DNA from: Nemertoderma westbladi
Taxonomy: Eukaryota > Animalia > Xenacoelomorpha
Length of the DNA stretch: 64,000 nucleotides
Assembly: GCA_032718475.1 (NCBI GenBank)
Contig: JAUCBJ010007125.1
Coordinates: 33,016-97,015, forward strand
Direction of reading: 5' to 3'
Shown here: positions 1-40,083 of the stretch, one piece after another
Position numbering within the stretch: position 1 is the first letter of the stretch
How the letters are laid out: every line of letters begins with the position of its first letter
Program-made: the position numbers and the translations under genes
Notes under the pieces: generated by a model
The model's database searches: none
Told to the model about the DNA's origin: nothing
The model's input: only the letters and a program-made list of their open reading frames with translations

Positions 1-93
1 GGAAACTCCGATATAGTTGACTACCTCCGTCATAACAAACAAATATCGAGAACAGATGGTATCGACGCATTGGAAGTACTTGGGTGTACGCAG
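1..93 (+). CDS. fem-1: fem-1 homolog, internal exon A (5' end outside window)
   Basis: Frame 1 reads GNSDIVDYLRHNKQISRTDGIDALEVLGCTQ, matching the FEM1 segment ...NIVDFL...INALELLGATF. It ends at a CAG|GTAGGT donor and joins in phase 0 to VDKK of the next exon. Not in the ORF track. Confidence 0.85.
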
Positions 94-245
94 GTAGGTA
101 ATCTTGGTGGGTGTACGCAGGTAGGTAATCTGGGTGGGTGTACGCAGGTAGGTAATCTGGGTGGGTGTACGGGTACGCAGGTAGTTAATCTGGGTGGGTG
201 TACGCAGGTAGGTAATCTGGGTGGGGTGTACGCAGGTAGGTAATA
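81..245 (+). repeat. 27-bp minisatellite made of the exon A splice-donor junction (6 copies; a 7th at about 3289-3312)
   Basis: Unit TGGGTGTACGCAG|GTAGGTAATCTGGG. GT positions at 94, 121, 148, 181, 208, 236 and 3297. Confidence 0.9.
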
Positions 246-281: not shown

Positions 282-3200
282 TAGGGATGCGACAGAGCTA
301 AAATTTCATCCGGAGCCCGGAGGTTCCTCCGGGTTACAATATGAGCTCCGGCCGGAGCCGGAGCTTTGGTGATTGATAATTCCAGTGTATTATTATGGTA
401 GACATAGACAGATATGCGTTCATGAAACAGGGGGGGAGGGGGGATTTGATGCAAATTCTTACTCGGCGAATTAATATCTCGCCTCAATGTCAAATTATCA
501 TTTAAGTCGCATGCTATTCTAATCAAAACAATAATCTCTATTTAACAGGTTACAGTTAGATTTTTGGGAGTAATCAGCAGTTATTTGCGTCGATTTTCAC
601 CTGGAGAACGATGCATTTTGATTGCGTCCAAAGACTCTCCTATCTGGTGTTCATTGGACAAAAATATACTGTAATCAGTGTAATGTTTTAGACTTTCAGT
701 TCACACTCCACTCACTCATCTCCCATTTTTTAATTAGGGAAGAATATTAATTGAATTAACTGAATAATTTCAATGTTTTTGTTCAAACATTTAAATAATT
801 TCACAAGGGGGGTGGGGGTTATCAGAAAACTTAAAAAAACAAGCTGTAAATTACTTAATGTGTTAAACTAGCGTGTCCCTATACTAACTGCAGAGCACGC
901 AGCAAAGACACAAAATAATCAGGAGCGTGTTATTACTAATGTAGGGCTGCTAAATACAAAACCGCTACTCACCGTTGGATGGCGCTAACCTGCCGTCCGC
1001 TAATATATTTTACTAATTTTCTACGGCTCCTGCTAATCGCTTGTTCCTTTCTCTACCGATCGCTCGATAGAGAGCTAACTGTTCGAATATATGAGCCACG
1101 CGGGAATAACCAAAACAATAAACCCGAATCGGCTCCCTAAGCTTACTTAAGACGAGTGTGAGAGGCTTTACACTCAGAGTATATTCTTATGGCCTAATCT
1201 TACTGTAAAAACGCGCTAATAATTACGTCTTTTCTAATCTAATCTAATCGCAAATACTGGGGTTCCCTAACGGAATGTGAGAATATTTAAAATAATCAAA
1301 AAATTCTAGTACAGTGTCTTTTAGGGCTAATACCTGCTGTGGGACTAAACTTGCCTTCGGCTGGCTTTAGGCCAGCAATTTACTAATGCGTGCTGCGTAC
1401 TATATACTGCGATCTAACTTATTGTCCGCTAATTCAAATAACCGCCCAGCGTGAATAGTGTACGGTACTCCAAATTATTACCTTAACTACTCTCCGCTAT
1501 GCTGCGTACAAATTCTTAATTTTACTAATTAATTACAGTCACAAATATGTAACAGCGTACTAATTACTAAGTATTCCAGAATGCGCAATTCTAATTTATT
1601 ACGTAACTGGTTGTACTAGTAACAGTCTAAATACCGTATTATTTTCGACCTAATCAATAATTATTTATAGTAAACTAAGAAATAGAAATCAATCAAAAGG
1701 GGAAAAGAGCACCTACCTAAGCATTCGTGATTTATTAGGCACACTTTAGCAACATACCAATCAGCGTAACAATCTATAGTGCGAACTATTACTAACGTCC
1801 GCAACTCACACTCTACAGTTCGCTACGTAGTTTGCGATGCAATATTTGCAACTCGCAATGTATGCAACTCGCAATGTTTGCAACTCGCAATGTTTGCAAC
1901 TCGCAATGTTTGCAACTCGCAATGTGAAGCGCGAAGGCCTCTCCCGGGTACATCTAGAGCTTCCTAACTAACCCAATTCCTGCCCCCCTAATAATACAAA
2001 AATAGAGACAAAATCTGGATTATCAGCCCCCTAATTACTGTACTAGCGAGATGTCTTCACTCCACACTGCTTACTTTCTAACCGCAACAGTGGCCCCCGC
2101 CAGCGTTGCCTGCTTTTGAATCCTCCGCGCTCCCTTCGTCGCCAAACCCCCCGATGCGCCCGCCGCGCCTACCGGTAACTTAGCTCTCCATCAGAATGAA
2201 TAGCTACCGTAGCGGCGCATGCAAATCACAAACAGTCTGACAGTCTAAGAAAATCCCGTAGGATTATTGCGTCGAAAGGAATCACATAGAACCATTAACT
2301 AAAGGGTAGAAATCATAGTTCCAGTGTAATTAACAGTAATCGTTGGGATTGATTGAGAAACACAAGCAAGAATAATCAAATTAGCGAATCATTGCAAGAA
2401 ACTAATCGAAAAAAGAGCAGAAATTACAAAGAATTACGCACAAAGCACATACTCTAAAATGGATAAGAAGGTGTGGTGTGGGTTATACTGGTACTGTGTA
2501 TACCATACCGGCAAGCCGCCAATTTATAGGTGATTCAAGAGGGATGATGCAATCGCTCTCTCATTGGCTCTCCAATCCAACATCATTATCGATATCAATA
2601 TCACTATCATTAGACCAACCTGGAAACAGTTAGGCCAATAAGGAAGCCGGATCGTGAACCTATTGCTCCTGAAACCCACAAATCGTCACCATATATGGTA
2701 ATTTTGCCGATGCTTAATTTAGCGGTACTAATATTATGATGCACAAAGGTTAATTTAGCGCGATTATAAAGAAAAATAAGACCAATGTATGGCTAGCCCT
2801 GTTGAGGCTAATAACAGCAAGCTTAAATCCAGGGTCCAACAAAACTTGCTACCCTGGAACTATCTACTTATATCCTATTATAAAATTACATAGGTAGGGC
2901 TACATACTATACAAAATGGGTAAAGTCAAATATATGGGCGTTTTATTTTCCTTATCTAAATGTCATCGCGCATTATTATGTCTTATCTAAATAATTATAC
3001 TGCATAACGGCTAATATATTATACTGTACAACTGCTAATATATTATACTGTACAACTGCTAATATATTATACTGTATAATACGGACTAATGTAAGTACAG
3101 CGCCATATACCGTAACATAATGAGTTATTATGTTATTTACTATGATATTTACATTATTCATATATCAGAAAAACTTTCGAATTTCAACAACATAAGCTCC

Positions 3201-3288
3201 GGATTTGCTCCGTGCTAATTTGCGCGGAGCCGGAACCAGAGCCGGAGCCAGAAAATTAGCCCGGAGCCGGAGCTCTGTCGCATCCCTA
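282..3288. mobile_element. Non-autonomous hAT-type DNA transposon with nested cargo
   Basis: Perfect 18-bp TIR TAGGGATGCGACAGAGCT (282-299 / 3271-3288). 8-bp TSD GTACGCAG (274-281, 3289-3296). CCGGAG subterminal repeats. No transposase ORF. Confidence 0.9.
1843..1925 (+). repeat. 16-bp minisatellite TGTTTGCAACTCGCAA, about 5 copies
   Basis: Direct tandem copies visible in the sequence. Confidence 0.85.
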
Positions 3289-3499
3289 GTACGCAGGTAG
3301 GTAATCTGGGTGGGGGGGGGGGGGGGGGGGGGGAGGGGGGGGGATGTACATTTTTTTGCGCTGGTAGTTTAAAAACTGTTGAGTTGCAAGGAATTGTAAT
3401 TATTTTATTTTGCAATTAGCCGAAAAAAAATCTGATATTTATTTCTTGTCTAAAGCGGGTGGGTTATATGAAATCCCTGCCGAGACGTATGGTATACAG

Positions 3500-4421: not shown

Positions 4422-4596
4422 GTGGATAAGAAACACGATCTGTTTTCCGCTGTTGAGTATTGGAAGACGGCGATGGAAGAGCGTAGTGAATCGAATGAAC
4501 GACCCGAGTTACCTAAAGTGTTACCCATGGAAACCAAGTCTGCATACAATGGCGTCATGGAGATTACAACTAAAGAACAACTAGAAGAGCTTTTGG
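4422..4596 (+). CDS. fem-1: fem-1 homolog, exon B
   Basis: ttgcag|GTG acceptor. VDKKHDLFSAVEYWKTAMEER...EQLEELLG matches FEM1 VDKKRDL..A..YW..AM. G|gttagt phase-1 donor. Confidence 0.88.
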
Positions 4597-4721
4597 GTTA
4601 GTAAGCGTTGTACCCAGTGATACCTATTTAGACCTGTAACACTAGGACTGTGACGAACTCTTAAAATAATAAAATTTTCTCGATTTGATTATCTCATAAT
4701 ATTATAATTTTTAGTAGATAT

Positions 4722-4975
4722 CGATAAAACAATAAATGGTAATTATACCCATTCTTACTTAAATCCCCGATAAGACAATAAATGGTAATTATACCCATTC
4801 TTACTTAAATCCCCGATAAGACAATAAATGGTAATTATACCCATTCTTACTGAAATCCCCGATAAGACAATAAATGGTAATTATACCCATTCTTACTGAA
4901 ATCCCCGATAAGACAATAAATGGTAATTATAACACATTACTGAAATCCTCGATAAGACAATAAATGGTAATTATA
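4722..4975 (+). repeat. 46-bp satellite, left arm
   Basis: Unit GATAAGACAATAAATGGTAATTATACCCATTCTTACTGAAATCCCC. The same array resumes at 21099. Confidence 0.95.
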
Positions 4976-5765: not shown

Positions 5766-5823
5766 TAGTCATTCCGGTTCAGACGACGTTGGTATCATCC
5801 GGGCATTAGAGAACCGACTGGCC

Positions 5824-14814: not shown

Positions 14815-14830
14815 TCCCGATGATTTTTAT

Positions 14831-19290: not shown

Positions 19291-19430
19291 CGATGCCATC
19301 GAAAGGAAGAGCCGCCAGGAGACAAGCCAAAGCGTTGCTCACGATGGATGTTGACGCTCCTCTACCAGCTATAGCGATCGACGAGAGCCGACGGGCGAAG
19401 AGGCGAAAGGCGTATCAGAGAAAGAAATAG
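16830..19430 (+). pseudogene. Extra ORF (ORF3) copy 2, full length (866 codons, one premature stop): WRN/EXD-like DEDDy 3'-5' exonuclease plus CCHC zinc knuckles
   Basis: Single frame from 16830 to 19430, with TAA at 18159 (CAA in copy 1). ExoI-like LIYDNEG, ExoII-like LP.EIQKIL.D.DVIKIGSDIKAD, IDTQ, SGIGYLA and ExoIII-like W....RRNYVYVVME. CX2CX4HX4C knuckles (His intact in copy 1). Basic C-terminal tail. Confidence 0.72.
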
Positions 19431-19604
19431 TGGATCGGGATATTCCAGGAACATTTATCGAACATTTATTTTTATACATATATATATAAACTCTAGGCCA
19501 AATTAATTAAAACTATGCAATATTAAATTTGGGTTTTTTATATTGGGAATGACCTACGCAAACTCAATCTACCGACAGACTTCACTAAGGTCATTGGGGG
19601 GGAC

Positions 19605-21098: not shown

Positions 21099-22205
21099 CC
21101 GATAAGACAATAAATGGTAATTATACCCATTCTTACTAAAATCCCCGATAAGACAATAAATGGTAATTATAACACATTACTGAAATCCCCGATAAGACAA
21201 TAAATGGTAATTATACCCATTCTTACTGAAATTCCCGATAAGACAATAAATGGTAATTATACCCATTCTTACTGAAACCCCGAGAAGACAATAAATGGTA
21301 ATTATACCCATTCTTACTGAAATCCCCGAGAAGACAATAAATGGTAATTATACCCATTCTTACTGAAATCCCCGATAAGACAATAAATGGTAATTATACC
21401 CATTACTGAAATCCCCGAGAAGACAATAAATGGTAATTATACCCATTCTTACTGAAATCCCCGAGAAGACAATAAATGGTAATTATACCCATTACTGAAA
21501 TCCCCGAGAAGACAATAAATGGTAATTATACCCATTCTTACTGAAATCCCCGATAAGACAATAAATGGTAATTATACCCATTCTTACTGAAATCCCCGAG
21601 AAGACAATAAATGGTAATTATACCCATTCTTACTGAAATCCCCGAGAAGACAATAAATGGTAATTATACCCATTCTTACTGAAATCCCCGAGAAGACAAT
21701 AAATGGTAATTATACCCATTCTTACTGAAATCCCCGATAAGACAATAAATGGTAATTATACCCATTACTGAAATCCCCGAGAACACAATAAATAATAATT
21801 AATTCTTACTGAAATCCCCGAGAAGACAATAAATGGTAATTATACCCATTCTTACTGAAATCCCCGAGAAGACAATAAATGGTAATTATACCCATTCTTA
21901 CTGAAATCCCCGAGAAGACAATAAATGGTAATTATACCCATTCTTACTGAAATCCCCGAGAAGACAATAAATAGTAATTATATCCATTACTGAAATCCCC
22001 GATAAGACAATAAATGGTAATTATACCCATTCTTACTGAAATCCCCGATAAGACAATAAATGGTAATTATAACACATTACTGAAATCCCCGATAAGACAA
22101 TAAATGGTAATTATGCCCATTACTGAAATCCCCAAGAAGACAATAAATGGTAATTATACCCATTCTTACTGAAATCCCCGATAAGACAATAAATGGTAAT
22201 TATAC
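21099..22205 (+). repeat. 46-bp satellite, right arm (about 24 units, some 43-bp variants)
   Basis: Same unit as 4722-4975. Confidence 0.95.
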
Positions 22206-22399
22206 CGCTACCACACTCACGTCTGCACCCAGGATCCCGCAAACACCAATAGTCAATACAGGTGGAAAATCTAGAAACAGCTGAACTAGGTGTAGTGTGT
22301 TTGGTGAGTAATACCACCCCGACACTACATTAATATTATTACTATTAATAATTAATTAATATATTAAATAGGTATTATTATTATTATTATTATTTTATT

Positions 22400-23763
22400 A
22401 CAGCTATTGAGGGACACTGGGTGCATACGTGAGTGTGGTAGCACAGCTATTGAGGGGCACTGGGTACGGACGTGAGTTTGGTAGCACAGCTATTGAGGGG
22501 CACTGTGTGCATACGTGAGTATAGAAGCACAGCTGTTGAGGGACACTGGGTGCATACGTGAGTTTGGTAGCACAGCTATTGAGGGGCACTGGGTACATAC
22601 GTGAGTTTGGTAGCACAGCTATTGAGGGGCACTGTGTGCATACGTGAGTATAGAAGCACAGCTGTTGAGGGACACTGGTTGCATACGTGAGTTTGGTAGC
22701 ACAGCTATTGAGGGACACTGGGTACATACGTGAGTTTGGTAGCACAACTATTGATGGACACTGGGTGCATACGTGAGTATGGAAGCACAGCTGTTGAGGG
22801 ACACTGGGTGCGGACGTGAGTTTGGAAGCACATCTGTTGAGGGACACTGGTTGCATAAGTGAGTGTGGTAGCACAGCTATTGAGGGACACTGGGTGCAGA
22901 CGTGAGTTTGGTAGCACAGCTATTGAGGGACACTGGGCGCATACGTGAGTTTGGTAGCACAGCTATTGAGGGACACTGGGTGCATACGTGAGTTTGGTAG
23001 CACAACTATTGTGAGACACTGGGTGCATACGTGAGTATGGAAGCACAGCTGTTGAGGGACACTGGGTGCGGACGTCAGTTTGGAAGCACAGCTGTTGAGG
23101 GACACTGGGTGCATAAGTGAGTGTGGTAGCACAGCTATTGAGGGACACTGGGTGCAGACGTGAGTGTGGTAGCACAGCTATTGAGGGACACTGGGTGCAG
23201 ACGTGAGTGTGGTAGCACAGCTATTGAGGGACACTGGGTGCATATGTGTGGTAGCACAGCTATTGAGGGACACTGGGTGCATATGTGTGGTAGCACAGCT
23301 ATTGAGGGACACTGGGTGCATATGTGTGGTAGCACAGCTATTGAGGGACACTGGGTGCAGACGTGAGTGTGGTAGCACAGCTATTGAGGGACACTGGGTG
23401 CATACGTGAGTGTGGTAGCTATTGAGGGACACTGGATGCATACGTGAGTGTGGTAGCACAGCTATTGAGGGGCACTGGGTACATACGTGAGTTTGGTAGC
23501 ACAGCTATTGAGGGGCACTGGGTGCATACGTGAGTATAGAAGCACAGCTGTTGAGGGACACTGGGTGCATACGTGAGTTTGGTAACACAGCTATTGAGGG
23601 ACACTGGGTGCATACGTGAGTTTGGTAGCACAACTATTGAGGGACACTGGGTGCATACGTGAGTATGGAAGCACAGCTGTTGAGGGACACTGGGTGCATA
23701 CGTGAGTATGGAAGCACAGCTGTTGAGGGACACTGGGTGCATAAGTGAGTAATGGTAGCACAG
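22400..23763 (+). repeat. 43-bp satellite (about 32 units)
   Basis: Unit ACAGCTATTGAGGGACACTGGGTGCATACGTGAGTGTGGTAGC. An inverted partial copy lies at 22207-22232. Confidence 0.95.
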
Positions 23764-23831: not shown

Positions 23832-23998
23832 GCGACCCCGATGAGATCCGAATGCAGTCGTTGTTGATACGCGAACGTATACTGGGTGCCAAACACCCAG
23901 ACACGTCATATTATATAAGGTACCGTGGTGCGGTCTACGCGGACTCGGGTGACTTCCCTCGCTGTATAACACTATGGAGATACGCACTCGATCTGCAG
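23832..23998 (+). CDS. fem-1: fem-1 homolog, exon C
   Basis: ttcacag|GC acceptor. DPDEIRMQSLLIRERILGAKHPDTSYYIRYRGAVYADSGDFPRCITLWRYALDLQ is the highly conserved FEM1 block. CAG|gtaggt donor. Phases fit both neighbouring exons. Confidence 0.95.
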
Positions 23999-26900
23999 GT
24001 AGGTTGTTATAATCTCCGACGACCAAAATTTAATATAATATTTTTTACTTTGAAACTTTATTTCACTTGCATTCAATTTGCGCCACTCTGCAAATTCTAA
24101 AGGTTTTTAATCTTAGTGTATATATGAAACTTTGAGATATGAATAAATACCATAAATCATAAATATATGAATACTGAACACGTAGTTATTAACCGGTACC
24201 TAAAAATACACTGGGTCGAAATTCAAAATGGCGTGCCAGTGCATATTCGGATTTAGCCATCACCTATACATACAGTAAGTACATTTTGAAGTAAAAATTA
24301 AGATATTTAAAAGTGTTCCAAAATGCACCGTACTTCCAAAAATTGCTCAGATTTCAACGATCCTCCCACGTTGTGTTGTTTTTAGATTTACATAAGAACC
24401 GCATATCAGACTAAAGGAGTAAGTTAAAATGTATTTCTTGTTGGGTTTATGTGATTTTTGTTTGTTTGGTTATAATTCTGATAAACCCCAACTATACGAC
24501 ATTATGATTTCTCCGGTGACTGGGCACATAAGTTAATTTATAAAATGTGTTTCAGTTGCCTATGGTTGACTTGGATTTTGGAATTAAGACTTAATGTGCT
24601 CTGGTTACTCGGAGAAACCTAGTTCTGAAATATTGATTCTGAATTAGATCACCCAACCACTAAATTCTCATTAAAACTACCACGTACACCTAACCATAAA
24701 GTGGTAAAAAAACATAAGAAATTCCACATTCACGTTCAAAATTTATTAGTTTAGAGCGAGAGCCTTCGGGTTGGTTTCTGACATTTAGTTCTAGTTAAAA
24801 TTTATTTATTTATTTTATTATTTATTTATTTGATTCATTCTTGTAACTTGGGAGGAGAACCTAATTGCCATAACTGGGCCTCTCTCGTGCAATCTTCCAT
24901 CTATAATCATTAAAATACAAACTTTGTAGAAGAGCGCATTCTTTGGCTTATTATTCAACTTGTGTGCGTTACAATCAATTTAGTTTGACAATATCAAAAT
25001 ACAAACAATTATTGCAAAATCTTAAAAAAGTTCCTGTGTCTTCAAAAGGTTGACAAATTGAAGAATTTTCAATAAAACTTGCGGAATGTTAAATAAAAGT
25101 TGAGGAATCCAGTCAATACGATAAACTGTTTAACCTTTACAGCGACGACCAATGATATACTCAATACGATAAACTGTTTAACCTTTACAGCGACGACCAA
25201 TGATCTACTCAATACGATAAACTGTTTAACCTTTACAGCGACGACCAATGATTTACTCAATACGATAAACTGTTTAACCTTTACAGCGACGACCAATGAT
25301 CCACTCAATACGATAAACTGTTTAACCTTTACAGCGACGACCAATGATCTACTCAATACGATAAACTGTTTACTTTTACAACGACGACCAATGATCTACT
25401 CAATACGATAAACTGTTTACTTTTACAGCGACGACCAATGATCTACTCAATACGATAAACTGTTTACTTTTACAGCGACGACCAATGATCCACTCAATAC
25501 GATAAACTGTTTACTTTTACAGCGACGACCAATGATCCACTCAATACGATAAACTGTTTACTTTTACAGCGACGACCAATGATCTACTCAATACGATAAA
25601 CTGTTTACTTTTACAGCGACGACCAATGATCCACTCAATACGATAAACTGTTTACTTTTACAGCGACGACCAATGATCCACTCAATACGATAAACTGTTT
25701 AACCTTTACATCGCACAACCAATGATCTACTCAATACGATAAACTGTTTACTTTTACAGCGACGACCTATGATCTACTCAATACGATAAACTGTTTACTT
25801 TTACAGCGACGACCAATGATCCACTCAATACGATAAACTGTTTAACTTTTACAGCGACGACCAATGATCCACTCAATATGATAAACTGTTTAACCTTTAC
25901 ATCGCACGACCAATGATCCACTCAATACGATAAACTGTTTACTTTTACAGCGACGACCAATGATCTACTCAATACGATAAACTGTTTACTTTTACAGCGA
26001 CGACCAATGATCCACTCAATATGATAAACTGTTTAACCTTTACATCGCACAACCAATGATCCACTCAATACGATAAACTGTTTACTTTTACGCCGACGAC
26101 CAATGATCCACTCAATACGATAAACTGTTTACTTTTACAGCGACGACCAATGATCCACTCAATATGATAAACTGTTTAACCTTTACATCGCACGACCAAT
26201 GATCCACTCAATACGATAAACTGTTTACTTTTACAGCGACGACCAATGATCCACTCAATACGATAAACTGTTTACTTTTACAGCGACGACCAATGATCTA
26301 CTCAATACGATAAACTGTTTACTTTTACAGCGACGACCAATGATCTACTCAATATGATAAACTGTTTAACCTTTACATCGCACAACCAATGATCCACTCA
26401 ATACGATAAACTGTTTACTTTTACAGCGACGACCAATGATCTACTCAATACGATAAACTGTTTACTTTTACACCGACGACCAATGATCCACTCAATACGA
26501 TAAACTGTTTACTTTTACAGCGACGACCAATGATCTACTCAATACGATAAACTGTTTACTTTTACAGCGACGACCAATGATCCACTCAATACGATAAACT
26601 GTTTACTTTTACACCGACGACCAATGATCCACTCAATACGATAAACTGTTTACTTTTACAGCGACGACCAATGATCTACTCAATACGATAAACTGTTTAC
26701 TTTTACAGCGACGACCAATGATCCACTCAATACGATAAACTGTTTACTTTTCCCCCGACGACCAATGATCTACTCAATACGATAAACTGTTTACTTTTAC
26801 ACCGACGACCAATGATCCACTCAATATGATAAACTGTTTAACCTTTACATCGCACAACCAATGATCCACTCAATACGATAAACTGTTTACTTTTACAGCG

Positions 26901-29887
26901 ACGACCAATGATCTACTCAATACGATAAACTGTTTACTTTTACAGCGACGACCAATGATCTACTCAATACGATAAACTGTTTACTTTTACAGCGACGACC
27001 AATGATCCACTCAATACGATAAACTGTTTACTCTCACAGCGACGACCTATGATCTACTCAATACGATAAACTGTTTACTTTTACAGCGGACGACCAATGA
27101 TCTACTCAATACGATAAACTGTTTAACCTTTACATCGCACAACCAATGATCCACTCAATACGATAAACTGTTTACTTTTACAGCGACGACCAATGATCCA
27201 CTCAATACGATAAACTGTTTAACCTTTACATCGCACAACCAATGATCCACTCAATACGATAAACTGTTTACTTTTACAGCGACGACCAATGATCCACTCA
27301 ATACGATAAACTGTTTACTTTTACAGCGACGACCAATTATCCACTCAATATGATAAACTGTTTAACCTTTACATCGCACGACCAATGATCCACTCAATAC
27401 GATAAACTGTTTACTTTTACAGCGACGACCAATGATCCACTCAATACGATAAACTGTTTACTTTTACAGCGACGACCAATGATCCACTCAATATGATAAA
27501 CTGTTTAACCTTTACATCGCACGACCAATGATCCACTCAATACGATAAACTGTTTACTTTTACAGCGACGACCAATGATCCACTCAATACGATAAACTGT
27601 TTACTTTTACAGCGACGACCAATGATCCACTCAATACGATAAACTGTTTACTTTTACAGCGACGACCAATGATCCACTTAATATGATAAACTGTTTAACC
27701 TTTACATCGCACGACCAATGATCCACTCAATACGATAAACTGTTTACTTTTACAGCGGACGACCAATGATCCACTCAATACGATAAACTGTTTACTTTCA
27801 CAGCGACGACCTATGATCTACTCAATACGATAAACTGTTTACTTTTACAGCGACGACCAATCATCCACTCAATATGATAAACTGTTTAACCTTTACATCG
27901 CACGACCAATGATCCACTCAATACGATAAACTGTTTACTTTTACAGCGACGACCAATGATCCACTCAATACGATAAACTGTTTACTTTTACAGCGACGAC
28001 CAATGATCCACTCAATATGATAAACTGTTTAACCTTTACATCGCACGACCAATGATCCACTCAATACGATAAACTGTTTACTTTTACAGCGACGACCAAT
28101 GATCCACTCAATACGATAAACTGTTTACTTTTACAGCGACGACCAATGATCCACTCAATACGATAAACTGTTTACTTTTACAGCGACGACCAATGATCTA
28201 CTCAATACGATAAACTGTTTACTTTTACAGCGACGACCAATGATCCACTCAATACGATAAACTGTTTACTTTCACAGCGACGACCTATGATCTACTCAAT
28301 GCGATAAACTGTTTACTTTTACAGCGACGACCAATGATCTACTCAATACGATAAACTGTTTACTTTTACAGCGACGACCAATTATCCACTCAATATGATA
28401 AACTGTTTAACCTTTACATCGCACGACCAATGATCCACTCAATACGATAAACTGTTTACTTTTACAGCGACGACCAATGATCCACTCAATACGATAAACT
28501 GTTTACTTTTACAGCGACGACCAATTATCCACTCAATACGATAAACTGTTTAACCTTTACATCGCACAACCAATGATCCACTCAATACGATAAACTGTTT
28601 ACTTTTACAGCGACGACCAATTATCCACTCAATACGATAAACTATTTAACCTTTACATCGCACGACCAATGATCCACTCAATACGATAAACTGCTTAACC
28701 TTTACATCGCACGACCAATGATTCACTCAATACGATAAACTGTTTACTTTTACAGCGACGACCAATGATCCACTCAATACGATAAACTGTTTACTTTCAC
28801 AGCGACGACCTATGATCTACTCAATACGATAAACTGTTTACTTTTACAGCGACGACCAATGATACACTCAATACGATAAACTGTTTACTTTTACAGCGAC
28901 GACCAATTATCCACTCAATACGATAAACTGTTTAACCTTTACATCGCACAACCAATGATCCACTCAATACGATAAACTGTTTACTTTTACAGCGACGACC
29001 AATGATCCACTCAATACGATAAACTGTTTACTTTTACAGCGACGACCAATTATCCACTCAATACGATAAACTGTTTAACCTTTACATCGCACAACCAATG
29101 ATCCACTCAATACGATAAACTGTTTACTTTTACAGCGACGACCAATTATCCACTCAATACGATAAACTGTTTAACCTTTACATCGCACGACCAATGATCC
29201 ACTCAATACGATAAACTGCTTAACCTTTACATCGCACGACCAATGATCCACTCAATACGATAAACTGTTTACTTTTACAGCGACGACCAATGATCTACTC
29301 AATACGATAAACTGTTTAACCTTTACATCGCACGACCAATGATCCACTCAATACTATAAACTGTTTACTTTTACAGCGGCGACCAATGATCCGCTCAATG
29401 CGATAAACTGTTTACTTTTACAGCGACGACCAATTATCTACTCAATACGACAAACTGTTTACTTTTACTGCAACGACCAATGATCCACTCAATACGATAA
29501 ACTGTTTACTTTTACAGCGACGACCAATGATCTACTCAATACGATAAACTGTTTAACCTTTACATCGCACAACCAATGATCCACTCAATACGATAAACTG
29601 TTTACTTTTACAGCGACGACCAATGATCCACTCAATACGATAAACTGTTTACTTTTACAGCGACGACCAATGATCCACTCAATACGATAAACTGTTTACT
29701 TTTACAGCGACGACCAATGATCCACTCAATACGATAAACTGTTTACTTTCACAGCGACGACCAATGATCCACTCAATACGATAAACTGTTTACTTTTACA
29801 GCGACGACCAATGATCTACTCAATACGATAAACTGTTTACTTTCACAGCGACGACCTATGATCTACTCAATACGATAAACTGTTTAA

Positions 29888-32800
29888 TAGGGTGTGTCAA
29901 AAAAAAAAATTTTGGATTTTGACTGTGCATACCCTCTGGATTTGTGCATTTGGGTGAAAAAACGACACAGACAAAATTTTTCATCATTTGGCTCAGGTTA
30001 AGCCATCCCCCAAGGCGCTTGAAATTGTCAATGTTAATCGAATGGTATATTTTTGAATGAAAAAGGCCATCTGTCGGTTAGGACACTTCCAGTCATCATA
30101 TGAAGTCCATTTTGGTCTCATTTGAACCACAATCTGACAATAGCCGATTTAGTGGGGGTAGATGTGATTGTCTAAGTCTTAGTACCAATATTTTGGAAAC
30201 CTCACAGCTTAAATTTCAATATTACCAATAAGGGACTCATCAAAGGATACAACATTATCAATTTTGACTGTTGTCTTCATTGTGACTATAGTGACATGGT
30301 TCATAATGACAATAGAAACCATCGCGAAACAATCGCTTTCTTCTCTGATACTTCCACCAAAGGAGAGAAAAGTGCCATCCCAACAAGGTCTTCACTTAAG
30401 TACCACAGCTGCCCTTTCAGTTTTTTCAAAGCTATACTGGCAACTTCTTTATCTACAACGTGGTACCTTTCAAGTTTCTTGAGTAGCAGTAAGTCATTAA
30501 TGGGAGCATTGCAGCTATCTGGGGCTAAATTCCAAGGTACAATATAAATTGTTGCTATAAATAGTACAATACGTTTCAATGAATTCAATTCGTGGTGGCT
30601 CAAATCAAACTGATCTCGAAAAAGCAAAATCTTCAGACAGTATATCCCCTTAGCCATCCACCAGGAATGGCTGTATGCTCCAGGAGTCGAAAATTTAGCT
30701 TTAGCAGCAGGACAGCCCAGACTGAGAAGTACTAAATTAATAAACTCACTATAGTCCTGTCTTGGGGCAGTTTTTCTGGCTAGTATATCAGTTAGTGCTT
30801 TACATGTGCTCTCTCTATTATTAGCCAGCCACGATTCTTCCTCACTGGATAAGACAAACTGGCCAGTTGTTTTGTCAAGTGACAAGTAACTCTCTTGGTT
30901 TATATAGGGCCACTGCTCCTTGAAACGACGGAAGAGTGGTATTTCTGGACCACATGTTGGGAAATATTTATCGAACACAGCTGACGATACAACCTCCAAA
31001 ATGTGATGTCGGCAAGCTAAGAACAAAAGTCTCTTATCAAAAGCTTTTTGTATTACAGTTATAGCACCAACATTAACTCCAGTATTAGAAGCTGTGGTAT
31101 CAAAACAAAGGCCAGCCAACCAGTCAGAAACACCTTCCCACTCATTAATAAATTTAACAACAGCATTCCCCATAATTGTACCAGTTCCAGCTGGCAAACG
31201 GGGTATGCCAAGCAGTTTTTCTATATTTTCTCCCGAAATAACTACTGGCATATGATCATTATTGTCCTGAGCAACTTCAGATGGTATAATTTTACTGTCA
31301 AAATGTGCGATTACAGGTGTATTTAGGCCTAATAGAAATTTTTCTTTAATTTCTCGACCAGTAGATTCCCGGACTGTTTTCCGAGCTCGGGCTATTGAAG
31401 AAGCCGATAAAGTAATCGATGTCACATCTACTCCTGCAGCTGTGAGAGCTGGAGTAACAACAAACATCGCCTCTCGAGGTGATGTTGCTGTTCTTTCCAT
31501 ACTGGCAACAAATTTAGGGTCTTTTATAACAGCAGTTTTATCACTAGTAGTGTAAGTACCGGTACTATTACTTGCAATTAAATCGCTGTCTGGTTCAAGT
31601 TGATGTTTGTGATATTTACTGGGTATAAATTCACCATCATCTCCAGATGCCTCACTATTTTCGGATTCACTCAATGTAAGAACGAGACTTTGGGAATCTT
31701 TCAGAATTTCAGCTTGCTCTTTGCGTTTCTCCATACTTAGTTTCCGCTTCAAGATCCTATTTTTCTTCTCATTGTAAATCTTGTCTTCACCTGACATTAT
31801 CATCAGTCTCTCTGTCCTCTGGTCCTGAAGGAATGTCCAGTCCTCCTTAATTTTTATTTTTTCCAGTGATTTGGCGTGGGCAATATCAAATAGTTTTGAC
31901 ATCCTCAATGAAAAGTTTTTCTCTTTAGCGATTTGAGTTTTGTCTGAGGTCCGAGATTTATGTTTTCCAACTGCTGAATATTCATCATGAAGTGCTTTTA
32001 GTTTAGCTACAGCGTTTGGCTTTTGTGTTGTTGGCACATTTGCCTTATTATATAACAGAATCACTTCATTTATTGTATTAGAGTATCCCACAGGTTTAGT
32101 CAGTTTGTTTACTCGAAGATCATAAAATAGTCGATGAAGGACTTGTCCTATAGTAGGAAGCTGCCTAGGGCTTTCTTCAGACAGAGAAACAGTAGGCTGA
32201 CCAATGAGCCATATTGCAGTAGATGAACGAGTTTTGTGCAATTCTGTGGTAATAGTTGCCATGTTTGTTAATATATAATTTGATACAATATAGGTAGGCC
32301 TACTGTAGGCATAGGGGTATGCCTACTGTACAGTACTATACTGTAGGTACTGCAGAGTAGGTAGGTTAGATAAATAATATGCTGTGGTACCTGTCAACCT
32401 GAAGCTTAACTGATAGGCCTAAATTGCAGTGTACTATAACATACACCAGTTGCAATATGATTTGATGCAATATAGGTACTGTAGGAGTAGTGGTATATGC
32501 CTACTGTACAGTGCTATACTGTAGGTACTGCTGTACTGCAGAGTAGGTAGGTTAGATAAAAAATATGATGTACCTGTCAGCCTGTAGCTTAACTGATAGG
32601 CCTAAATTGCAGTGTACTATAACATACACCGGTACAACAGACATTGTGGCACCGTTGTGACAACAAAGTCACAACGGCAACACAGTCACTGTATCTAGCT
32701 AATATATTTTGAAATTACCAATTAACTAAAAATGGACGATTCAATGAAGAAGACCTTAATGTCAATTTTGACTCTTCTTTCCATAATACAAAGTCAATTT

Positions 32801-33086
32801 TGGTCTCATTCAAACCGCAATGGCCGATTTAGTGGGGGTAGATGTGGTTAACAAAGTCTTACAACCATTTTTACCAATTCACCAAGTCTTTTTAAGTCTA
32901 CAAGTGTTCAGCGGTTCGCGGTAAAAATTGCAAATCGAAAATGCCTTTGGGGGGTGGTTCAACGTCAAAATTTTAGTATGGTATAATGATAAAATATTGT
33001 TATTTTTGCATTTGACACAAAATGGGAGGGTATGCCAAAACAAATTCCAACATTTTTTTTTCCTCTATGGAAAGTGACACACTCTA
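29888..33086 (-). mobile_element. hAT-superfamily (hATm-like) DNA transposon, 3199 bp
   Basis: TIR TAGGGTGTGTCA / TGACACACTCTA. 8-bp TSD CTGTTTAA (29880-29887, 33087-33094). Transposase ORF inside. Confidence 0.92.
30301..32262 (-). CDS. hATm-like transposase, 653 aa, probably C-terminally truncated
   Basis: Motifs IAHFDSKI, CFDTTASNTG, LACRHHILE, RQDY.E and LWYLSEDL. The ORF ends before the expected final catalytic Glu block. Confidence 0.82.
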   Translation of the reverse strand: MATITTELHKTRSSTAIWLIGQPTVSLSEESPRQLPTIGQVLHRLFYDLRVNKLTKPVGYSNTINEVILLYNKANVPTTQKPNAVAKLKALHDEYSAVGKHKSRTSDKTQIAKEKNFSLRMSKLFDIAHAKSLEKIKIKEDWTFLQDQRTERLMIMSGEDKIYNEKKNRILKRKLSMEKRKEQAEILKDSQSLVLTLSESENSEASGDDGEFIPSKYHKHQLEPDSDLIASNSTGTYTTSDKTAVIKDPKFVASMERTATSPREAMFVVTPALTAAGVDVTSITLSASSIARARKTVRESTGREIKEKFLLGLNTPVIAHFDSKIIPSEVAQDNNDHMPVVISGENIEKLLGIPRLPAGTGTIMGNAVVKFINEWEGVSDWLAGLCFDTTASNTGVNVGAITVIQKAFDKRLLFLACRHHILEVVSSAVFDKYFPTCGPEIPLFRRFKEQWPYINQESYLSLDKTTGQFVLSSEEESWLANNRESTCKALTDILARKTAPRQDYSEFINLVLLSLGCPAAKAKFSTPGAYSHSWWMAKGIYCLKILLFRDQFDLSHHELNSLKRIVLFIATIYIVPWNLAPDSCNAPINDLLLLKKLERYHVVDKEVASIALKKLKGQLWYLSEDLVGMALFSPLVEVSEKKAIVSRWFLLSL

Positions 33087-35724
33087 CTGTTTAACCTTTA
33101 CAGCGACGACCAATGATCTACTCAATACGATAAACTGTTTAACCTTTACATCGCACAACCAATGATCCACTCAATACGATAAACTGTTTACTTTTACAGC
33201 GACGACCAATGATCCACTCAATACGATAAACTGTTTACTTTTACAGCGACGACCAATGATCCACTCAATATGATAAACTGTTTAACCTTTACATCGCACG
33301 ACCAATGATCCACTCAATACGATAAACTGTTTACTTTTACAGCGACGACCAATGATTCACTCAATACGATAAACTGTTTACTTTTACAGCGACGACCAAT
33401 AATCTACTCAATACGATAAATTGTTTACTTTTACAGCGACGACCAATGATCCACTCAATATGATAAACTGTTTAACCTTTACAGCGACGACCAATGATCC
33501 ACTCAATACGATAAACTGTTTAACCTTTACAGCGACGACCAATGATCTACTCAATACGATAAACTGTTTACTTTTACAGCGACGACCAATGATCCACTCA
33601 ATACGATAAACTGTTTACTTTTACAGCGACGACCAATGATCTACTCAATACGATAAACTGTTTACTTTTACAGCGACGACCAATGATCCACTCAATACGA
33701 TAAACTGTTTACTTTCACAGCGACGACCTATGATCTACTCAATACGATAAACTGTTTAACCTTTACAGCGACGACCAATGATCTACTCAATACGATAAAC
33801 TGTTTAACCTTTACATCGCACAACCAATGATCCACTCAATACGATAAACTGTTTACTTTTACAGCGACGACCAATGATCCACTCAATACGATAAACTGTT
33901 TACTTTTACAGCGGACGACCAATGATCTACTTAATACGATAAACTGTTTAACCTTTACATCGCACAACCAATGATCCACTCAATACGATAAACTGTTTAC
34001 TTTTACAGCGACGACCAATGATCCACTCAATATGATAAACTGTTTAACCTTTACATCGCACGACCAATGATCCACTCAATACGATAAACTGTTTACTTTT
34101 ACAGCGACGACCAATGATCCACTCAATACGATAAACTGTTTACTTTTACAGCGACGACCAATGATCCACTCAATATGATAAACTGTTTAACCTTTACATC
34201 GCACGACCAATGATCCACTCAATACGATAAACTGTTTACTTTTACAGCGGACGACCAATGATCCACTCAATACGATAAACTGTTTACTTTCACAGCGACG
34301 ACCTATGATCTACTCAATACGATAAACTGTTTACTTTTACAGCGACGACCAATGATCCACTCAATATGATAAACTGTTTAACCTTTACATCGCACGACCA
34401 ATGATCCACTCAATACGATAAACTGTTTACTTTTACAGCGACGACCAATGATCCACTCAATACGATAAACTGTTTACTTTTACAGCGACGACCAATGATC
34501 CACTCAATATGATAAACTGTTTAACCTTTACATCGCACGACCAATGATCCACTCAATACGATAAACTGTTTACTTTTACAGCGACGACCAATGATCCACT
34601 CAATACGATAAACTGTTTACTTTTACAGCGACGACCAATGATCTACTCAATACGATAAACTGTTTACTTTTACAGCGACGACCAATGATCTACTCAATAC
34701 GATAAACTGTTTACTTTTACAGCGACGACCAATGATCCACTCAATACGATAAACTGTTTACTTTCACAGCGACGACCTATGATCTACTCAATACGATAAA
34801 CTGTTTACTTTTACAGCGGACGACCAATGATCTACTCAATACGATAAACTGTTTAACCTTTACATCGCACAACCAATGATCCACTCAATACGATAAACTG
34901 TTTACTTTTACAGCGACGACCAATGATCCACTCAATACGATAAACTGTTTACTTTTACAGCGACGACCAATTATCCACTCAATACGATAAACTGTTTAAC
35001 CTTTACATCGCACAACCAATGATCCACTCAATACGATAAACTGTTTACTTTTACAGCGACGACCAATTATCCACTCAATACGATAAACTGTTTAACCTTT
35101 ACATCGCACGACCAATGATCCACTCAATACGATAAACTGCTTAACCTTTACATCGCACGACCAATGATCCACTCAATACGATAAACTGTTTACTTTTACA
35201 GCGACGACCAATGATCTACTCAATACGATAAACTGTTTAACCTTTACATCGCACGATCAATGATCCACTCAATACTATAAACTGTTTACTTATACAGCGG
35301 CGACCAATGATCCGCTCAATGCGATAAACTGTTTACTTTTACAGCGACGACCAATTATCTACTCAATACGACGAACTGTTTACTTTTACTGCAACGACCA
35401 ATGATCCACTCAATACGATAAACTGTTTACTTTTACAGCGACGACCAATTTTCTACTCAATACGACAAACTGTTTACTTTTACTGCAACGACCCATGATC
35501 CACTCAATACGATAAACTGTTTACTTTTACAGCGGACGACCAATGATCCACTCAATACGATAAACTGTTTACTTTTACAGCGAACGACCAATGATCCACT
35601 CAATACGATAAACGGTTTACATTTACAGCGGACGACCAATGATCCACTCAATACGATAAACTGTTTACTTTTACAGCGAACGACCAATGATCCACTCAAT
35701 ACGATAAACGGTTTACATTTACAG

Positions 35725-35952
35725 CGGACGTCCAATGGTCTACTCAATGCAATGACTCAATCCTCTTTCCTCTCGTTCGCCGAGCTGTTCTCCTTTATGG
35801 TTAAGGAACTCCCACCCGAACGTCTGTCCAGCTTCCTCATCTACAACGATATCATCTACGTGTTCGGTATCTGTGTCAGCGAGATCGTTAGCGGGATGCG
35901 TTCTCTACTGGGGTTGAAGTACAACTCTGAGCCCGAGTCAGAGTTCTCTCGG
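35725..35952 (+). CDS. fem-1: fem-1 homolog, exon D
   Basis: tttacag|CGG acceptor (last satellite unit) gives RTSNGLLNA-MTQSSFLSFAELFSFM. This has the same 9-residue spacing between LDxQ and MT.SS.LSFAELF as FEM1. CGG|gtatga donor. Confidence 0.88.
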
Positions 35953-36226
35953 GTATGAAGGATGCTCATATTTTACTCTATTTAATACAATCGGGGATTA
36001 TTTAATAATTATTATTACTGAGGTTAACCAAATTATTTATAAATTTATCTGGGGTTCAGTTGTTTTTTATGAGTCCTTGCTGTAATCAAATCTAGAGATT
36101 CAAATTGTTAAAATTGTACCATTTTATCAGTTTAGAACAAATTCCGCAATGTCCCAGATTTAGTGTCATTATTTAGTAGTTTGTTTCCCAGATACGATTA
36201 TCTTATATTATTTCTTATATTTTTAG

Positions 36227-36865
36227 TTGGAGAAATCTCTTGGACAAGGTTTGAAGATAATGCTTCACCTACTCTGTCTGTTGACTGGGGTTGAGAACCC
36301 AGGCCCACCATACAACTGCGAGATAACCTTCAAACAACTCCTCTATAAACTCATCCGTCTCAAACCGACCACTGCAAACACAGCGCCGCTACTCCATCTA
36401 GCGGTGAACACTAACACCACCAATGTAGGCAAGTACCCAGTCTGCACCTTCCCGTGTGACAAGGTTGCGAGTTTACTTATCGAGTGCGGCGCCTCCGTGG
36501 AAGAGGTCGATCAGCTGGGTAACACGGCGCTGCACGTGGCTGCCGGCACGGCCTCTCCCGCCAACGAGCGGTGCTTCCGACTGCTGCTGAGGCACGGCGC
36601 CCATATCGATAGGATCAACCGGTACGAAGAGACGCCGATGTATACGTTGAGACAAGCCGCCAAGTATACTCGAAAGTGGACTCCGGAGTTCAACGTCGAG
36701 ATGAACCGACTCGCTTTCGGTTCCACGTCCCTTAAATGTCTGTCGGCGCGGGCCGTTCCGATGTCCGCGCTCGCCTATTTGGAACTCATTCCCAAGGATT
36801 TACACGAGTTTATTTGTTGGCATCGCAAGGTAGATAAAAAAAAGTACGAGGTTTTTTCGACCTAA
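36227..36865 (+). CDS. fem-1: fem-1 homolog, terminal exon (C-terminal ankyrin repeats and VHL-box-like motif)
   Basis: ttttag|TTG acceptor. Motifs PLLHLAV...VGKYPVCTFP, GNTALHVAA, LLLRHGAHID and SLKCLSARAV...IPKDLHEFI. TAA stop, with AATAAA about 10 nt downstream. Confidence 0.93.
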   Translation: MEKSLGQGLKIMLHLLCLLTGVENPGPPYNCEITFKQLLYKLIRLKPTTANTAPLLHLAVNTNTTNVGKYPVCTFPCDKVASLLIECGASVEEVDQLGNTALHVAAGTASPANERCFRLLLRHGAHIDRINRYEETPMYTLRQAAKYTRKWTPEFNVEMNRLAFGSTSLKCLSARAVPMSALAYLELIPKDLHEFICWHRKVDKKKYEVFST

Positions 36866-38461
36866 AGTTTCTGAAATAAATTTCACAATATTAACTGAAT
36901 CAATTTTTAATTAACTAACAACTCTACTCGGAATCTGATTATTATTATAGTTATTTTATTATTATTATTATTAATATTATTATTATTATTATTAGCACAA
37001 ATGTCGTAAATTTTTTAACATGTAGGTCGTAGGATGTTGAATTCGTTTTGCTATTTCCAATTTCTCCAAATCTCTTTAGAATTACCATCGTCGGTTTAGA
37101 TATAAATGTAGTTTATCATTGGATACGTCGTAAAGGTGTACGATAATCTACGGGAATAACTTAGTGGAAAGTTACATTTATAATTAACATCGAATCAATG
37201 ATTTCAGTTTTAAAACGTTCATAAATAAATTTGATTCAATTGATTGTCTCTTTCCTAGTTAATTTTCAATTAACCCCAATATAATTGTAATTATGTAATA
37301 TTATAATTTAATTGAATTATATATAATAATAATAATTTATCAGCCCTAAAAGTACAAAATGACGTAGCCTGGAGGCAGAGAGTATTCAAATGGAAAACGT
37401 AGAGCAAATTATTATTATTATTATTATTTATGCATGATGATATGCATTTGTAATGACTCCCCAACTCAGGTCTGGTTTCCGTAAAAATCTAATCAATAAT
37501 GTAAAATGATAGATTGCACTGATCTGCCTATTTGCAACGTTTTCCATGCAACAAAATCATGGAATGGTCTAAGTTAATAATTCCTTTTTTTTATAGTTTT
37601 ATAATGTTTAAATTTTTCGATGACACCTCCACAAAATTCAATGGAACCCAAAAGAAAATTGAAAATATTTACTAATTATCCAAAATGTATTCTTTCTTCT
37701 TTCTCTCCCTAAAACGAACTTTAGGTTGTAAACAAATAAAAGTGGCATTGTCTAACCGCAGCGGTTTAAGTCGATATTATTTAATGGGGGTTGTTTCATT
37801 CGAGAACGCGAAAAATGCGCTTCTGGTAAATATATTATACTTATGTACAAAGTATATCACTTTATATTATACAGAATTAGCAAATGTAACACTTGGACTA
37901 AAAAAGGGTAAATTTGTTTTCAAGGACTTGGTATATTCTTCATCAAAATATACTGACTACTTTTAAACTGTATTAATTAGATGCAGAATTTATACAGTTT
38001 TCAGATAGGCTATTAACCGTTACGACATCTTCATTATTAGTTGCGAGATAGAGTCCAAACCAACTCCAATTTATGCTGTGGAGATCGCAAAAACCACGTA
38101 TCTTTTAATTTAAAACTGCTGTGAAAACTTTCGAAATATAAGCAGGTATACAAATTTGGTACCAAAATACGCACTGAAAAAATTGGCTTTAAGAATATAT
38201 AGTTTGTCAAGGTGACAGATACTAAAAGAAGCAAAATTGTGGCCCAAAGTCGAACATAGACAGACATTGCCACTTTTTTGTGTTTTTGACTTTAGTTCAC
38301 GGTTTATCTCTTTAAATGTGATAATCTTAATTAACGTCAAGTTTTTTAAACATAAACAGAGTGTTATTTTCACCTTTTTATATTTTGAGCACCCAAAGTT
38401 GAACAAACGTTCATATATTAATTGGTAAAGGAATTAATTATCTGTCCTTAATAATATAGAA

Positions 38462-40064
38462 TAAATGGTTATGCCCACATACAGTACTGTAAGTTAAATG
38501 GTTATGCCCACTTACAGTACTGTAAGTTAAATGGTTATGCCCACATACAGTACTGTAAGTTAAATGGTTATGCCCACATACAGTACTGTAAGTTAAATGG
38601 TTATGCCCACATACAGTACTGTAAGTTAAATGGTTATGCCCACATACAGTACTGTAAGTTAAATGGTTATGCCCACATACAGTACTGTAAGTTAAATGGT
38701 TATGCCCACATACAGTACTGTAAGTTAAATGGTTATGCCCACATACAGTACTGTAAGTTAAATGGTTATGCCCACATACAGTACTGTAAGTTAAATGGTT
38801 ATGCCCACATACAGTACTGTAAGTTAAATGGTTATGCCCACATACAGTACTGTAAGTTAAATGGTTATGCCCACATACAGTACTGTAAGTTAAATGGTTA
38901 TGCCCACATACAGTACTGTAAGTTAAATGGTTATGCCCACATACAGTACTGTAAGTTAAATGGTTATGCCCACATACAGTACTGTAAGTTAAATGGTTAT
39001 GCCCACATACAGTACTGTAAGTTAAATGGTTATGCCCACATACAGTACTGTAAGTTAAATGGTTATGCCCACATACAGTACTGTAAGTTAAATGGTTATG
39101 CCCACATACAGTACTGTAAGTTAAATGGTTATGCCCACATACAGTACTGTAAGTTAAATGGTTATGAACACATACAGTACTGTAAGTTAAATGGTTATGC
39201 CCACATACAGTACTGTAAGTTAAATGGTTATGCCCACATACAGTACTGTAAGTTAAATGGTTATGCCCACATACAGTACTGTAAGTTAAATGGTTATGCC
39301 CACATACAGTACTGTAAGTTAAATGGTTATGCCCACATACAGTACTGTAAGTTAAATGGTTATGCCCACATACAGTACTGTAAGTTAAATGGTTATGCCC
39401 ACTTACAGTACTGTAAGTTAAATGGTTATGCCCACATACAGTACTGTAAGTTAAATGGTTATGCCCACATACAGTACTGTAAGTTAAATGGTTATGCCCA
39501 CTTACAGTACTGTAAGTTAAATGGTTATGCCCACATACAGTACTGTAAGTTAAATGGTTATGCCCACATACAGTACTGTAAGTTAAATGGTTATGCCCAC
39601 ATACAGTACTGTAAGTTAAATGGTTATGCCCACTTACAGTACTGTAAGTTAAATGGTTATGCCCACATACAGTACTGTAAGTTAAATGGTTATGCCCACA
39701 TACAGTACTGTAAGTTAAATGGTTATGCCCACATACAGTACTGTAAGTTAAATGGTTATGCCCACATACAGTACTGTAAGTTAAATGGTTATGCCCACAT
39801 ACAGTACTGTAAGTTAAATGAATAAATGGTTATGTCCACATACAGTACTGTAAGTTAAATGAATAAATGGTTATGTCCACATACAGTACTGTAAGTTAAA
39901 TGAATAAATGGTTATGCCCACATACAGTACTGTATGTTAAATGAATAAATGGTTATGTCCACATACAGTACTGTAAGTTAAATGAATAAATGGTTATGCC
40001 CACATACAGTACTGTAAGTTAAATGAATAAATGGTTATGCCCACATACAGTACTGTAAGTTAAA
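38462..40064. repeat. 33-bp satellite (40-bp variants at the 3' end), highly homogeneous
   Basis: Unit AAATGGTTATGCCCACATACAGTACTGTAAGTT, containing the palindrome TACAGTACTGTA. Confidence 0.97.
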
Positions 40065-40083
40065 TATTTACAATAAATTATAT

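What the first reader, a model, noticed from the sequence alone, without database searches (positions are those of the whole stretch)
25113..35748. A 7.4-kb satellite is the fem-1 intron/exon D acceptor junction amplified about 150 times, and the exon-proximal copies keep frame
Seen: each unit is about 24 nt of intron ending TTTTACAG plus the first about 24 nt of exon D. The five AGs nearest the exon (35532, 35580, 35628, 35676, 35724) are exactly 48 bp apart and stop-free, each adding about RTTNDPLNTINCLLLQ. The next copy upstream has AG changed to TG (about 35485). More distal copies are mostly 47 bp (frameshifting) or lack the AG (TTTACATCGC). The array consensus also encodes DPL, like the D/EPL of vertebrate FEM1, while the current exon reads GLL, so the array may preserve an older exon state. 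Inference: selection keeps usable acceptors in frame, giving a possible ladder of 0-4 16-aa insertions in a ubiquitin-ligase substrate receptor, while distal decoys would feed NMD. Alternatively the proximal copies are simply the least diverged array edge.
Basis: partly seen in the sequence, partly recalled or inferred. Interest (0 to 1): 0.8.

Follow-up and report, generated by a model that had tools for sequence, protein, structure and literature searches.

The report
Repeated splice signal in fem-1 gene
In an animal's fem-1 gene, a 47-49-base piece spanning an intron end and the next exon's start is repeated 156 times; this repeat type is known from lancelets as a "mirage", the spare splice signals are likely ignored, and the in-frame spacing of the four spare copies nearest the exon is likely a by-product of recent copying at the array edge.

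Summary
There are 156 units (7.4 kb, split by a 3.2-kb hATm-like transposon) made of the fem-1 exon D acceptor plus exon start. 111 keep AG. Only the five at 35532-35724 read open into exon D; the other 106 hit a stop within 9-26 codons. This is a known kind, the amphioxus "mirage" minisatellite, and the scan found many such arrays before on other DNA of this genome (unchecked notes). Selection for frame is not shown. The far edge also has five consecutive 48-bp units, all leading to a stop. The proximal five are three types (A-B-C-B-C), so they are not independent. An intact out-of-frame AG lies 94 nt upstream, and the TG "barrier" variant recurs 6 kb away. Homologs keep this spacing in 121 of 124 cases, which points to 35724 as the real acceptor. 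In favour of a frame filter, an unreported 27-bp donor array at exon A of the same gene also stays in frame for four spare copies. The DPL relic is likely real. No RNA could be examined, so use of the ladder is untested.

The parts
1..93 (+). fem-1 exon A (3' part; window begins inside it); donor after 93, phase 0
   Evidence: Translation; aligns by eye with homologs at the ELLG motif; spacing to exon B matches 71 of 72 scored homologs
81..244 (+). 27-bp donor-spanning array (second mirage): spare donors after 120, 147, 180, 207 (+27, +54, +87, +114; in frame, stop-free), 235 (+142, out of frame); one more copy after 3296
282..3288 (.). hAT-type insertion inside the donor array; terminal inverted repeat, 8-bp target duplication 274-281 / 3289-3296
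4422..4599 (+). fem-1 exon B (ends phase 1)
   Evidence: open frame with AG/GT borders; alignment by eye to homologs
23832..23999 (+). fem-1 exon C (ends phase 0, TPR-like)
   Evidence: 78-85% identical to the 120 listed hits, mostly named FEM1A/C; weak TPR hits below cut-off
25107..29887 (+). acceptor-junction array, distal part (about 101 units); first five units are 48-bp edge variants (long intron half, short exon half) that lead to a stop at codon 10
29888..33086 (-). hATm-like DNA transposon inserted in the array; 8-bp target duplication 29880-29887 / 33087-33094; 653-aa ORF 32262-30304
   Evidence: termini compared with PMC6004678; no Pfam hit
33087..35504 (+). acceptor-junction array, proximal out-of-frame part; 34837-35457 is duplicated at 28916-29536 (616 of 621 columns identical), including an AG-to-TG copy
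35505..35724 (+). five 48-bp exon-proximal units (A-B-C-B-C) with AGs at 35532, 35580, 35628, 35676, 35724; the four spare ones would add 16-64 aa in frame
35725..35952 (+). fem-1 exon D (228 nt from the terminal acceptor), phase 0 at both ends
   Evidence: FEM1C hit E=0.0013; restores the homolog spacing
36227..36865 (+). fem-1 exon E (last coding exon, ankyrin repeats, stop)
   Evidence: FEM1C best hit E=1.5e-29; Ank_2

Best explanation
The array is a large 'mirage' minisatellite made of the fem-1 exon D acceptor and exon start, likely born by slippage between short matching words on either side of the junction, and splicing is predicted to use the last acceptor (35724) and pass over the other 110. 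Shown: anatomy, frames, block duplications, edge-specific variants. Inferred: origin at the TCAAT-containing microhomology; growth by multi-unit duplication; choice of the acceptor closest to the exon D donor (exon definition); the four spare in-frame copies are recent local duplicates of the terminal unit, which must keep the exon's full first codon and happens to be 48 bp, so the in-frame run is one roughly 1-in-3 event copied four times. The bulk of the array likely keeps the older D-P-L state while the exon drifted to G-L-L.
For: Both edges carry a run of five 48-bp units of their own type; the distal run leads to a stop, so edge runs arise where frame cannot matter. Under independent shuffling the proximal run has P=5.4e-6 and the distal run about 4e-7 (hand arithmetic counts), so that null fails at both ends. 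The proximal five are A-B-C-B-C. Intact out-of-frame AGs remain at 35438 and 35344, and the TG variant is also present 6 kb away. Q-to-MT spacing is 9 in 121 of 124 homologs, and only 35724 gives it; the site is a 5-residue turn between helices in a model of Owenia fem-1. PMC3087553 (passages) describes the same repeat type, normal splicing and exclusion of cluster boundaries from homogenisation. PMC9225289 (abstract, section 9 and passages) reports that in human genes long flanking introns favour sites closest across the exon; here the introns are 11.7 kb and 274 nt.
Against: No RNA was examined. The exon A donor array of the same gene is also 3n and stop-free for four spare copies, including a 6-nt insertion: roughly 1 in 9 for two 3n units, 1 in 27 with the indel. 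The terminal acceptor has fewer pyrimidines (9 of 17) than three of the four spare ones (11 of 17). The in-frame zone ends at an exon length of 420 nt and the first frame-breaking AG gives 514 nt, as a size-limited filter would predict. In PMC9225289 section 9 the upstream preference among 3' sites is described as significantly reduced, not abolished, for exons between two long introns. The homolog set is mostly vertebrate (best 120 of 872 hits, plus 4). The chance of such an edge run under neutral turnover was not quantified.
Confidence: 0.62

Rival explanations
1. Purifying frame filter: acceptors within a few hundred bases of the exon D donor are used at low level, so out-of-frame copies there are removed while in-frame ones are tolerated. 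The ladder exists as minor, non-adaptive isoforms.
For: Both junction arrays in this gene are in frame next to the exon and break frame further out; 2 of the 3 units just upstream of the in-frame zone have lost AG; spare acceptors have equal or richer pyrimidine tracts; frame-disrupting tandem sites are suppressed by NMD in human data (PMC8055015 passages).
Against: Proximal copies are not independent; the distal edge shows the same run length without a frame benefit; AG 35438 persists; six other arrays of this genome with a stated unit length are all non-3n (29, 41, 44, 47, 52, 76-77 bp; unchecked notes; proximal lengths not given).
Confidence: 0.22
2. Functional ladder or shifted acceptor: an upstream copy (e.g. 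35676) is a major acceptor, putting D-P-L back right after the exon C helix and adding 16 or more residues; the terminal copy drifted to G-L-L and lost pyrimidines because it became internal.
For: D/E-P is nearly invariant in homologs yet present only in the repeat copies; the terminal AG has the weaker tract (9 vs 11 of 17); an unchecked note reports splicing from an internal variant copy in another array of this genome (e1-10614089).
Against: No homolog among 124 shows an insertion here; the site is a tight turn with pLDDT 91-95 in the homolog model; the gene is diverged throughout (exon E 38-39% identical to its best fem-1 hits), so G-L-L needs no special cause; unchecked notes on TFG, Nup210, aconitase, beta-catenin and HBS1L report use of the genuine site.
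Confidence: 0.1
3. No constraint at all: this fem-1 copy is silent or decaying, or the array edge is an assembly product, so frame is irrelevant.
For: High divergence from homologs; loss of the conserved D/E-P.
Against: All five exons seen are open with canonical AG/GT borders and matching phases; exon C is 78-85% identical to the listed hits; 46 distinct unit sequences and a transposon with target duplication inside the array argue for real DNA.
Confidence: 0.06

Closest known systems
Amphioxus 'mirage' minisatellites (globins BflGb6/BflGb9, Adh3, troponin C, PGBD5). PMC3087553: 6 passages and reference list seen; PMC3902484: 1 passage seen; the original Adh paper (PMC117041) is not held and was not seen
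   Same: Tandem repeats spanning an intron-exon boundary (BflGb6: intron 3' end plus exon 5' part); many but not all copies keep AG; concerted evolution with boundaries excluded; both 5' and 3' borders can be hit.
   Different: 156 copies here against 3-6 for BflGb6; split by a transposon; four spare acceptors in frame; normal splicing was shown in amphioxus and is untested here.
Human F7 IVS7 37-bp VNTR (PMC1557585: abstract and Discussion seen)
   Same: First monomer holds the real junction; identical pseudo-sites are functional but silent; the Discussion says stop-free pseudo-sites 5 and 6 are not used either (their unpublished data).
   Different: A donor array of 5-9 copies; closest to the exon A donor array here, not to the acceptor array.
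Tandem alternative splice sites (TASS; PMC8055015: 11 passages seen)
   Same: Competing nearby sites; frame-preserving shifts dominate expression and frame-disrupting ones are removed by NMD.
   Different: TASS are defined by observed use and mostly short shifts; here sites are 48 nt apart, each with its own tract, and use is unobserved.
FEM1A/FEM1C (CG6966-like) substrate receptors (ubiquitin-ligase role recalled, not tested)
   Same: Ankyrin-TPR-ankyrin layout; best solved-structure hit FEM1C.
   Different: Strongly diverged outside exon C; G-L-L in place of D/E-P-L.

Membership tests
mirage minisatellite | Tandem repeat whose unit spans an exon-intron boundary of the host gene | tested here: met
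   intron end plus first 19-20 nt of exon D
mirage minisatellite | Many but not all units keep the splice signal | tested here: met
   111 of 156 keep AG
mirage minisatellite | Concerted evolution with cluster boundaries excluded | tested here: met
   43 of 156 units share one sequence; each edge has its own run of five 48-bp units; block duplication 616 of 621 identical
mirage minisatellite | Regular splicing is not disturbed | not testable with these tools
   no RNA holder listed
mirage minisatellite | Copy-number instability between haplotypes or cells | not testable with these tools
   one haplotype only; no genome held, no runs listed
tandem alternative splice sites (functional ladder) | Alternative sites are used in transcripts | not testable with these tools
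   no RNA; no protein of this species spanning exons C-D turned up (weak evidence)
tandem alternative splice sites (functional ladder) | Shifts preserve frame and are stop-free | tested here: met
   4 spare AGs open
FEM1A/C | Sequence similarity across TPR and C-terminal ankyrin regions with FEM1C above FEM1B | tested here: met
   (106 vs 81 bits)
hATm transposon (insert) | TAGGGTG...CACCCTA termini and 8-9-bp target duplication | tested here: met
   left end exact, right end one mismatch, 8-bp duplication
hATm transposon (insert) | Intact transposase with C-terminal PF05699 domain | tested here: not met
   no Pfam hit in the 653-aa ORF at E<=0.1; Atlas look-alikes are unnamed eukaryotic proteins of 617-734 aa; filed only as hATm-like

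The most novel reading that the evidence does not exclude
Junction-spanning satellites in this genome are frame-filtered next to the exon: the spare fem-1 acceptors are used, giving a ladder of 0-4 16-residue inserts in a helix-turn-helix of FEM-1 that puts back the ancestral D-P-L lost from the exon, so that a satellite acts as both a fossil record and a reservoir of coding sequence, with a matching 9-residue ladder at the exon A donor.
Probability: 0.13. Interest if true: 0.7.

Novelty: new member of a known kind. Interest (0 to 1): 0.3.

Why it matters
As it stands it is one more large mirage, in a genome where the scan has already noted many. Its value is as a test case: 110 decoy acceptors with near-identical sequence at graded distances, four in frame and 106 not, would let one measure how position alone sets 3' splice-site choice and whether NMD-exposed decoys are purged. 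The array also likely records an older state of the exon (D-P-L, with D-L-L as a possible intermediate), which could date coding changes without an outgroup. If the ladder were used, it would show a satellite generating protein isoforms.

Tried and rejected
No whole genome is held, so no genome-wide 3n test. Sequencing-run search for 35725-37250, kind RNA: no RNA holder listed; this is no evidence either way, and no reads were laid. Protein searches for a transcript-derived product of this species or a close relative: exon E (17 hits, fem-1 hits at 38-39%), exon C (best 85%), exon D (2 hits), and the representative library (swamped by ankyrin repeats) found none. The earlier-findings look-ups by sequence and by nearby place were empty. 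RNA structure masking of spare acceptors: rejected, 35458-35780 folds no better than shuffles (z=+1.63). TG copy as a selected barrier: weakened, the variant occurs 3 times, once 6 kb upstream, and AG 35438 lies between two of them. Independent-unit shuffle as a test of selection: rejected, it is equally violated at the distal edge. Whether the ancestral unit was 48 or 49 bp cannot be polarised: all four combinations of long/short intron half and long/short exon half exist. The 43-bp and 46-bp arrays in intron B do not overlap fem-1 junctions. Literature searches for an in-frame isoform ladder from a junction-spanning acceptor array listed nothing relevant; the library lacks most subscription journals, the original mirage paper is not held, and no supplements were read (those of PMC3087553 hold the mirage alignments and could show proximal unit lengths).
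Full report
Gene. The window holds the 3' part of an animal fem-1 gene of the A/C type on the + strand: exon A (to 93), B (4422-4599), C (23832-23999), D (35725-35952) and E (36227-36865), all open, with AG/GT borders and matching phases.

Observation. TRF finds 47-bp-period arrays at 25107-29886 and 33086-35748. Parsed by unit there are 156 copies and 46 distinct sequences. Each is 28-29 nt of intron end plus 19-20 nt of exon start. Two one-base length variants, one in each half, give four classes: 100 units of 47 bp (91 with AG), 36 of 49 bp (all AG to AT), 10 of 48 bp with long intron half and short exon half, and 10 of 48 bp with short intron half and full exon half. 111 units keep AG. Read in phase 0 from exon C, five (35532, 35580, 35628, 35676, 35724) are open to the exon D donor. 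The other 106 stop within 9-26 codons, 98 of them at codon 9 or 10. The gap in the array is a 3.2-kb hATm-like element with an 8-bp target duplication (no Pfam hit).

Origin (inferred). The unique intron at the 5' edge and the unique exon at the 3' edge share a TCAAT-containing word in the repeat register, which suggests slippage across the junction. Growth involved multi-unit blocks: 34837-35457 recurs at 28916-29536 with 616 of 621 columns identical.

Which acceptor is real. Among 124 homologs (P0001, P0002, the 120 listed and the two; mostly vertebrate), 121 have nine residues between the Q that ends exon C and the MT motif. Three did not match the pattern: two look truncated or mis-joined, and Helobdella has LT with the same spacing by eye. 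Only 35724 gives nine. In an AlphaFold2 model of Owenia fem-1 (20-sequence alignment, mean pLDDT 89) this is helix 354-371, a five-residue turn, then helix 377-394, with block pLDDT 91-95. A 16-64 residue insert would enlarge that turn and has no precedent in this set.

Is the proximal 48-bp run selected? It is far from an independent shuffle of units (P=5.4e-6), but so is the distal edge, where five consecutive 48-bp units of the other class (about 4e-7, hand arithmetic counts) all lead to a stop. Edges therefore carry their own runs, as PMC3087553 reports for amphioxus. The proximal five are A-B-C-B-C, so the last four are one dimer duplication. A copy made from the terminal unit inherits the exon's full first codon and the terminal intron length, so the run reduces to one event of about 1 in 3. 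The TG copy is no clean barrier: the variant occurs three times, once 6 kb upstream, and intact out-of-frame AGs remain at 35438 and 35344. Six other arrays of this genome whose notes state a unit length are all non-3n (29, 41, 44, 47, 52, 76-77 bp), and several notes report RNA using the genuine site, including an in-frame donor ladder in HBS1L (unchecked AI notes, proximal lengths not given; one note, GALNS, reports use of an internal copy). The neutral frequency of such an edge run was not simulated.

What favours a frame filter. Two 3n arrays out of two is about 1 in 9, or 1 in 27 with the indel. The spare acceptors would make exons of 276-420 nt and the first frame-breaking one 514 nt. 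Three of the four spare acceptors have more pyrimidines (11 of 17) than the terminal one (9 of 17). This is suggestive, not sufficient.

The DPL relic. Homologs have D or E (121 of 121) then P (119 of 121) at these positions; the exon has G-L and the array consensus D-P. If the array had drifted from the present exon by three random changes, both would restore the conserved residues with probability 0.002-0.006 (post hoc simulation). The array holds 105 copies of the P form and 42 of the exon's L form, and none of the exon's G or S codons. The likeliest reading is that the exon changed after the array arose, with D-L-L as a possible intermediate. An outgroup is needed to confirm this.

Mechanism (inferred). 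With flanking introns of 11.7 kb and 274 nt, exon D would be found by exon definition, which in human genes favours sites closest across the exon and smaller exons (PMC9225289; abstract, section 9 and passages; for 3' sites between two long introns the text says the upstream preference is reduced). In human F7 IVS7 identical pseudo-donors are functional but silent, including stop-free ones (PMC1557585; abstract and Discussion). RNA folding offers no masking. I put 0.62 on terminal-site use with a neutral edge run, 0.22 on a purifying filter acting on leaky use, 0.10 on a real ladder or shifted acceptor, and 0.06 on a dead copy or artefact.

Limits. No genome, no RNA holder listed, and no protein of this species in four searches, so the use of any acceptor is unobserved. 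The name 'mirage' came from earlier scan notes and was checked in PMC3087553 and PMC3902484. Searches for a published in-frame ladder from such an array listed nothing relevant in a library that lacks most subscription journals; no supplements were read.

Verdict. A real, large member of a known repeat class, found many times before in this genome. The in-frame ladder is possible in sequence but unproven and more simply explained by the array edge. Interest 0.3.

Noticed in passing
window 81-244 and 3289-3310: Second junction-spanning array in the same gene: 27-bp unit with the exon A donor; four spare donors in frame, the fifth out of frame; exon and intron flanks share a TGGGTG word.
   Followed up: yes
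window 282-3288 and 29888-33086: Both splice-junction arrays of this gene are interrupted by a hAT-type element with TAGGG-starting termini and an 8-bp target duplication taken from the repeat.
   Followed up: partly
window about 4980-21100: BEL/Pao-like LTR retrotransposon (DUF1759, protease, RT, integrase, DUF5641; family name from recall of these domains) lying between two parts of a 46-bp array (4722-4976, 21099-22206), with an internal duplication at 4.49-kb spacing.
   Followed up: partly
window 12340-13344 (second copy about 4.49 kb downstream): Extra ORF after the integrase with no Pfam hit; Atlas look-alikes are WRN-like 3'-5' exonucleases (score 0.92, PF01612 on 38% of members, recognition below threshold), no PDB hit. 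A lead only.
   Followed up: partly
window 22400-23763: 43-bp array in intron B that starts right after a T-rich ACAG and contains GTGAGT in most units, resembling a repeated 25-nt pseudo-exon; homologs need no extra exon here.
   Followed up: no
window 38462-40065, 43164-54588, 56167-57659: Further large arrays downstream of fem-1 (33/41 bp, 34 bp x 328, 44 bp); some units contain splice-like words, but no host exon was identified.
   Followed up: no
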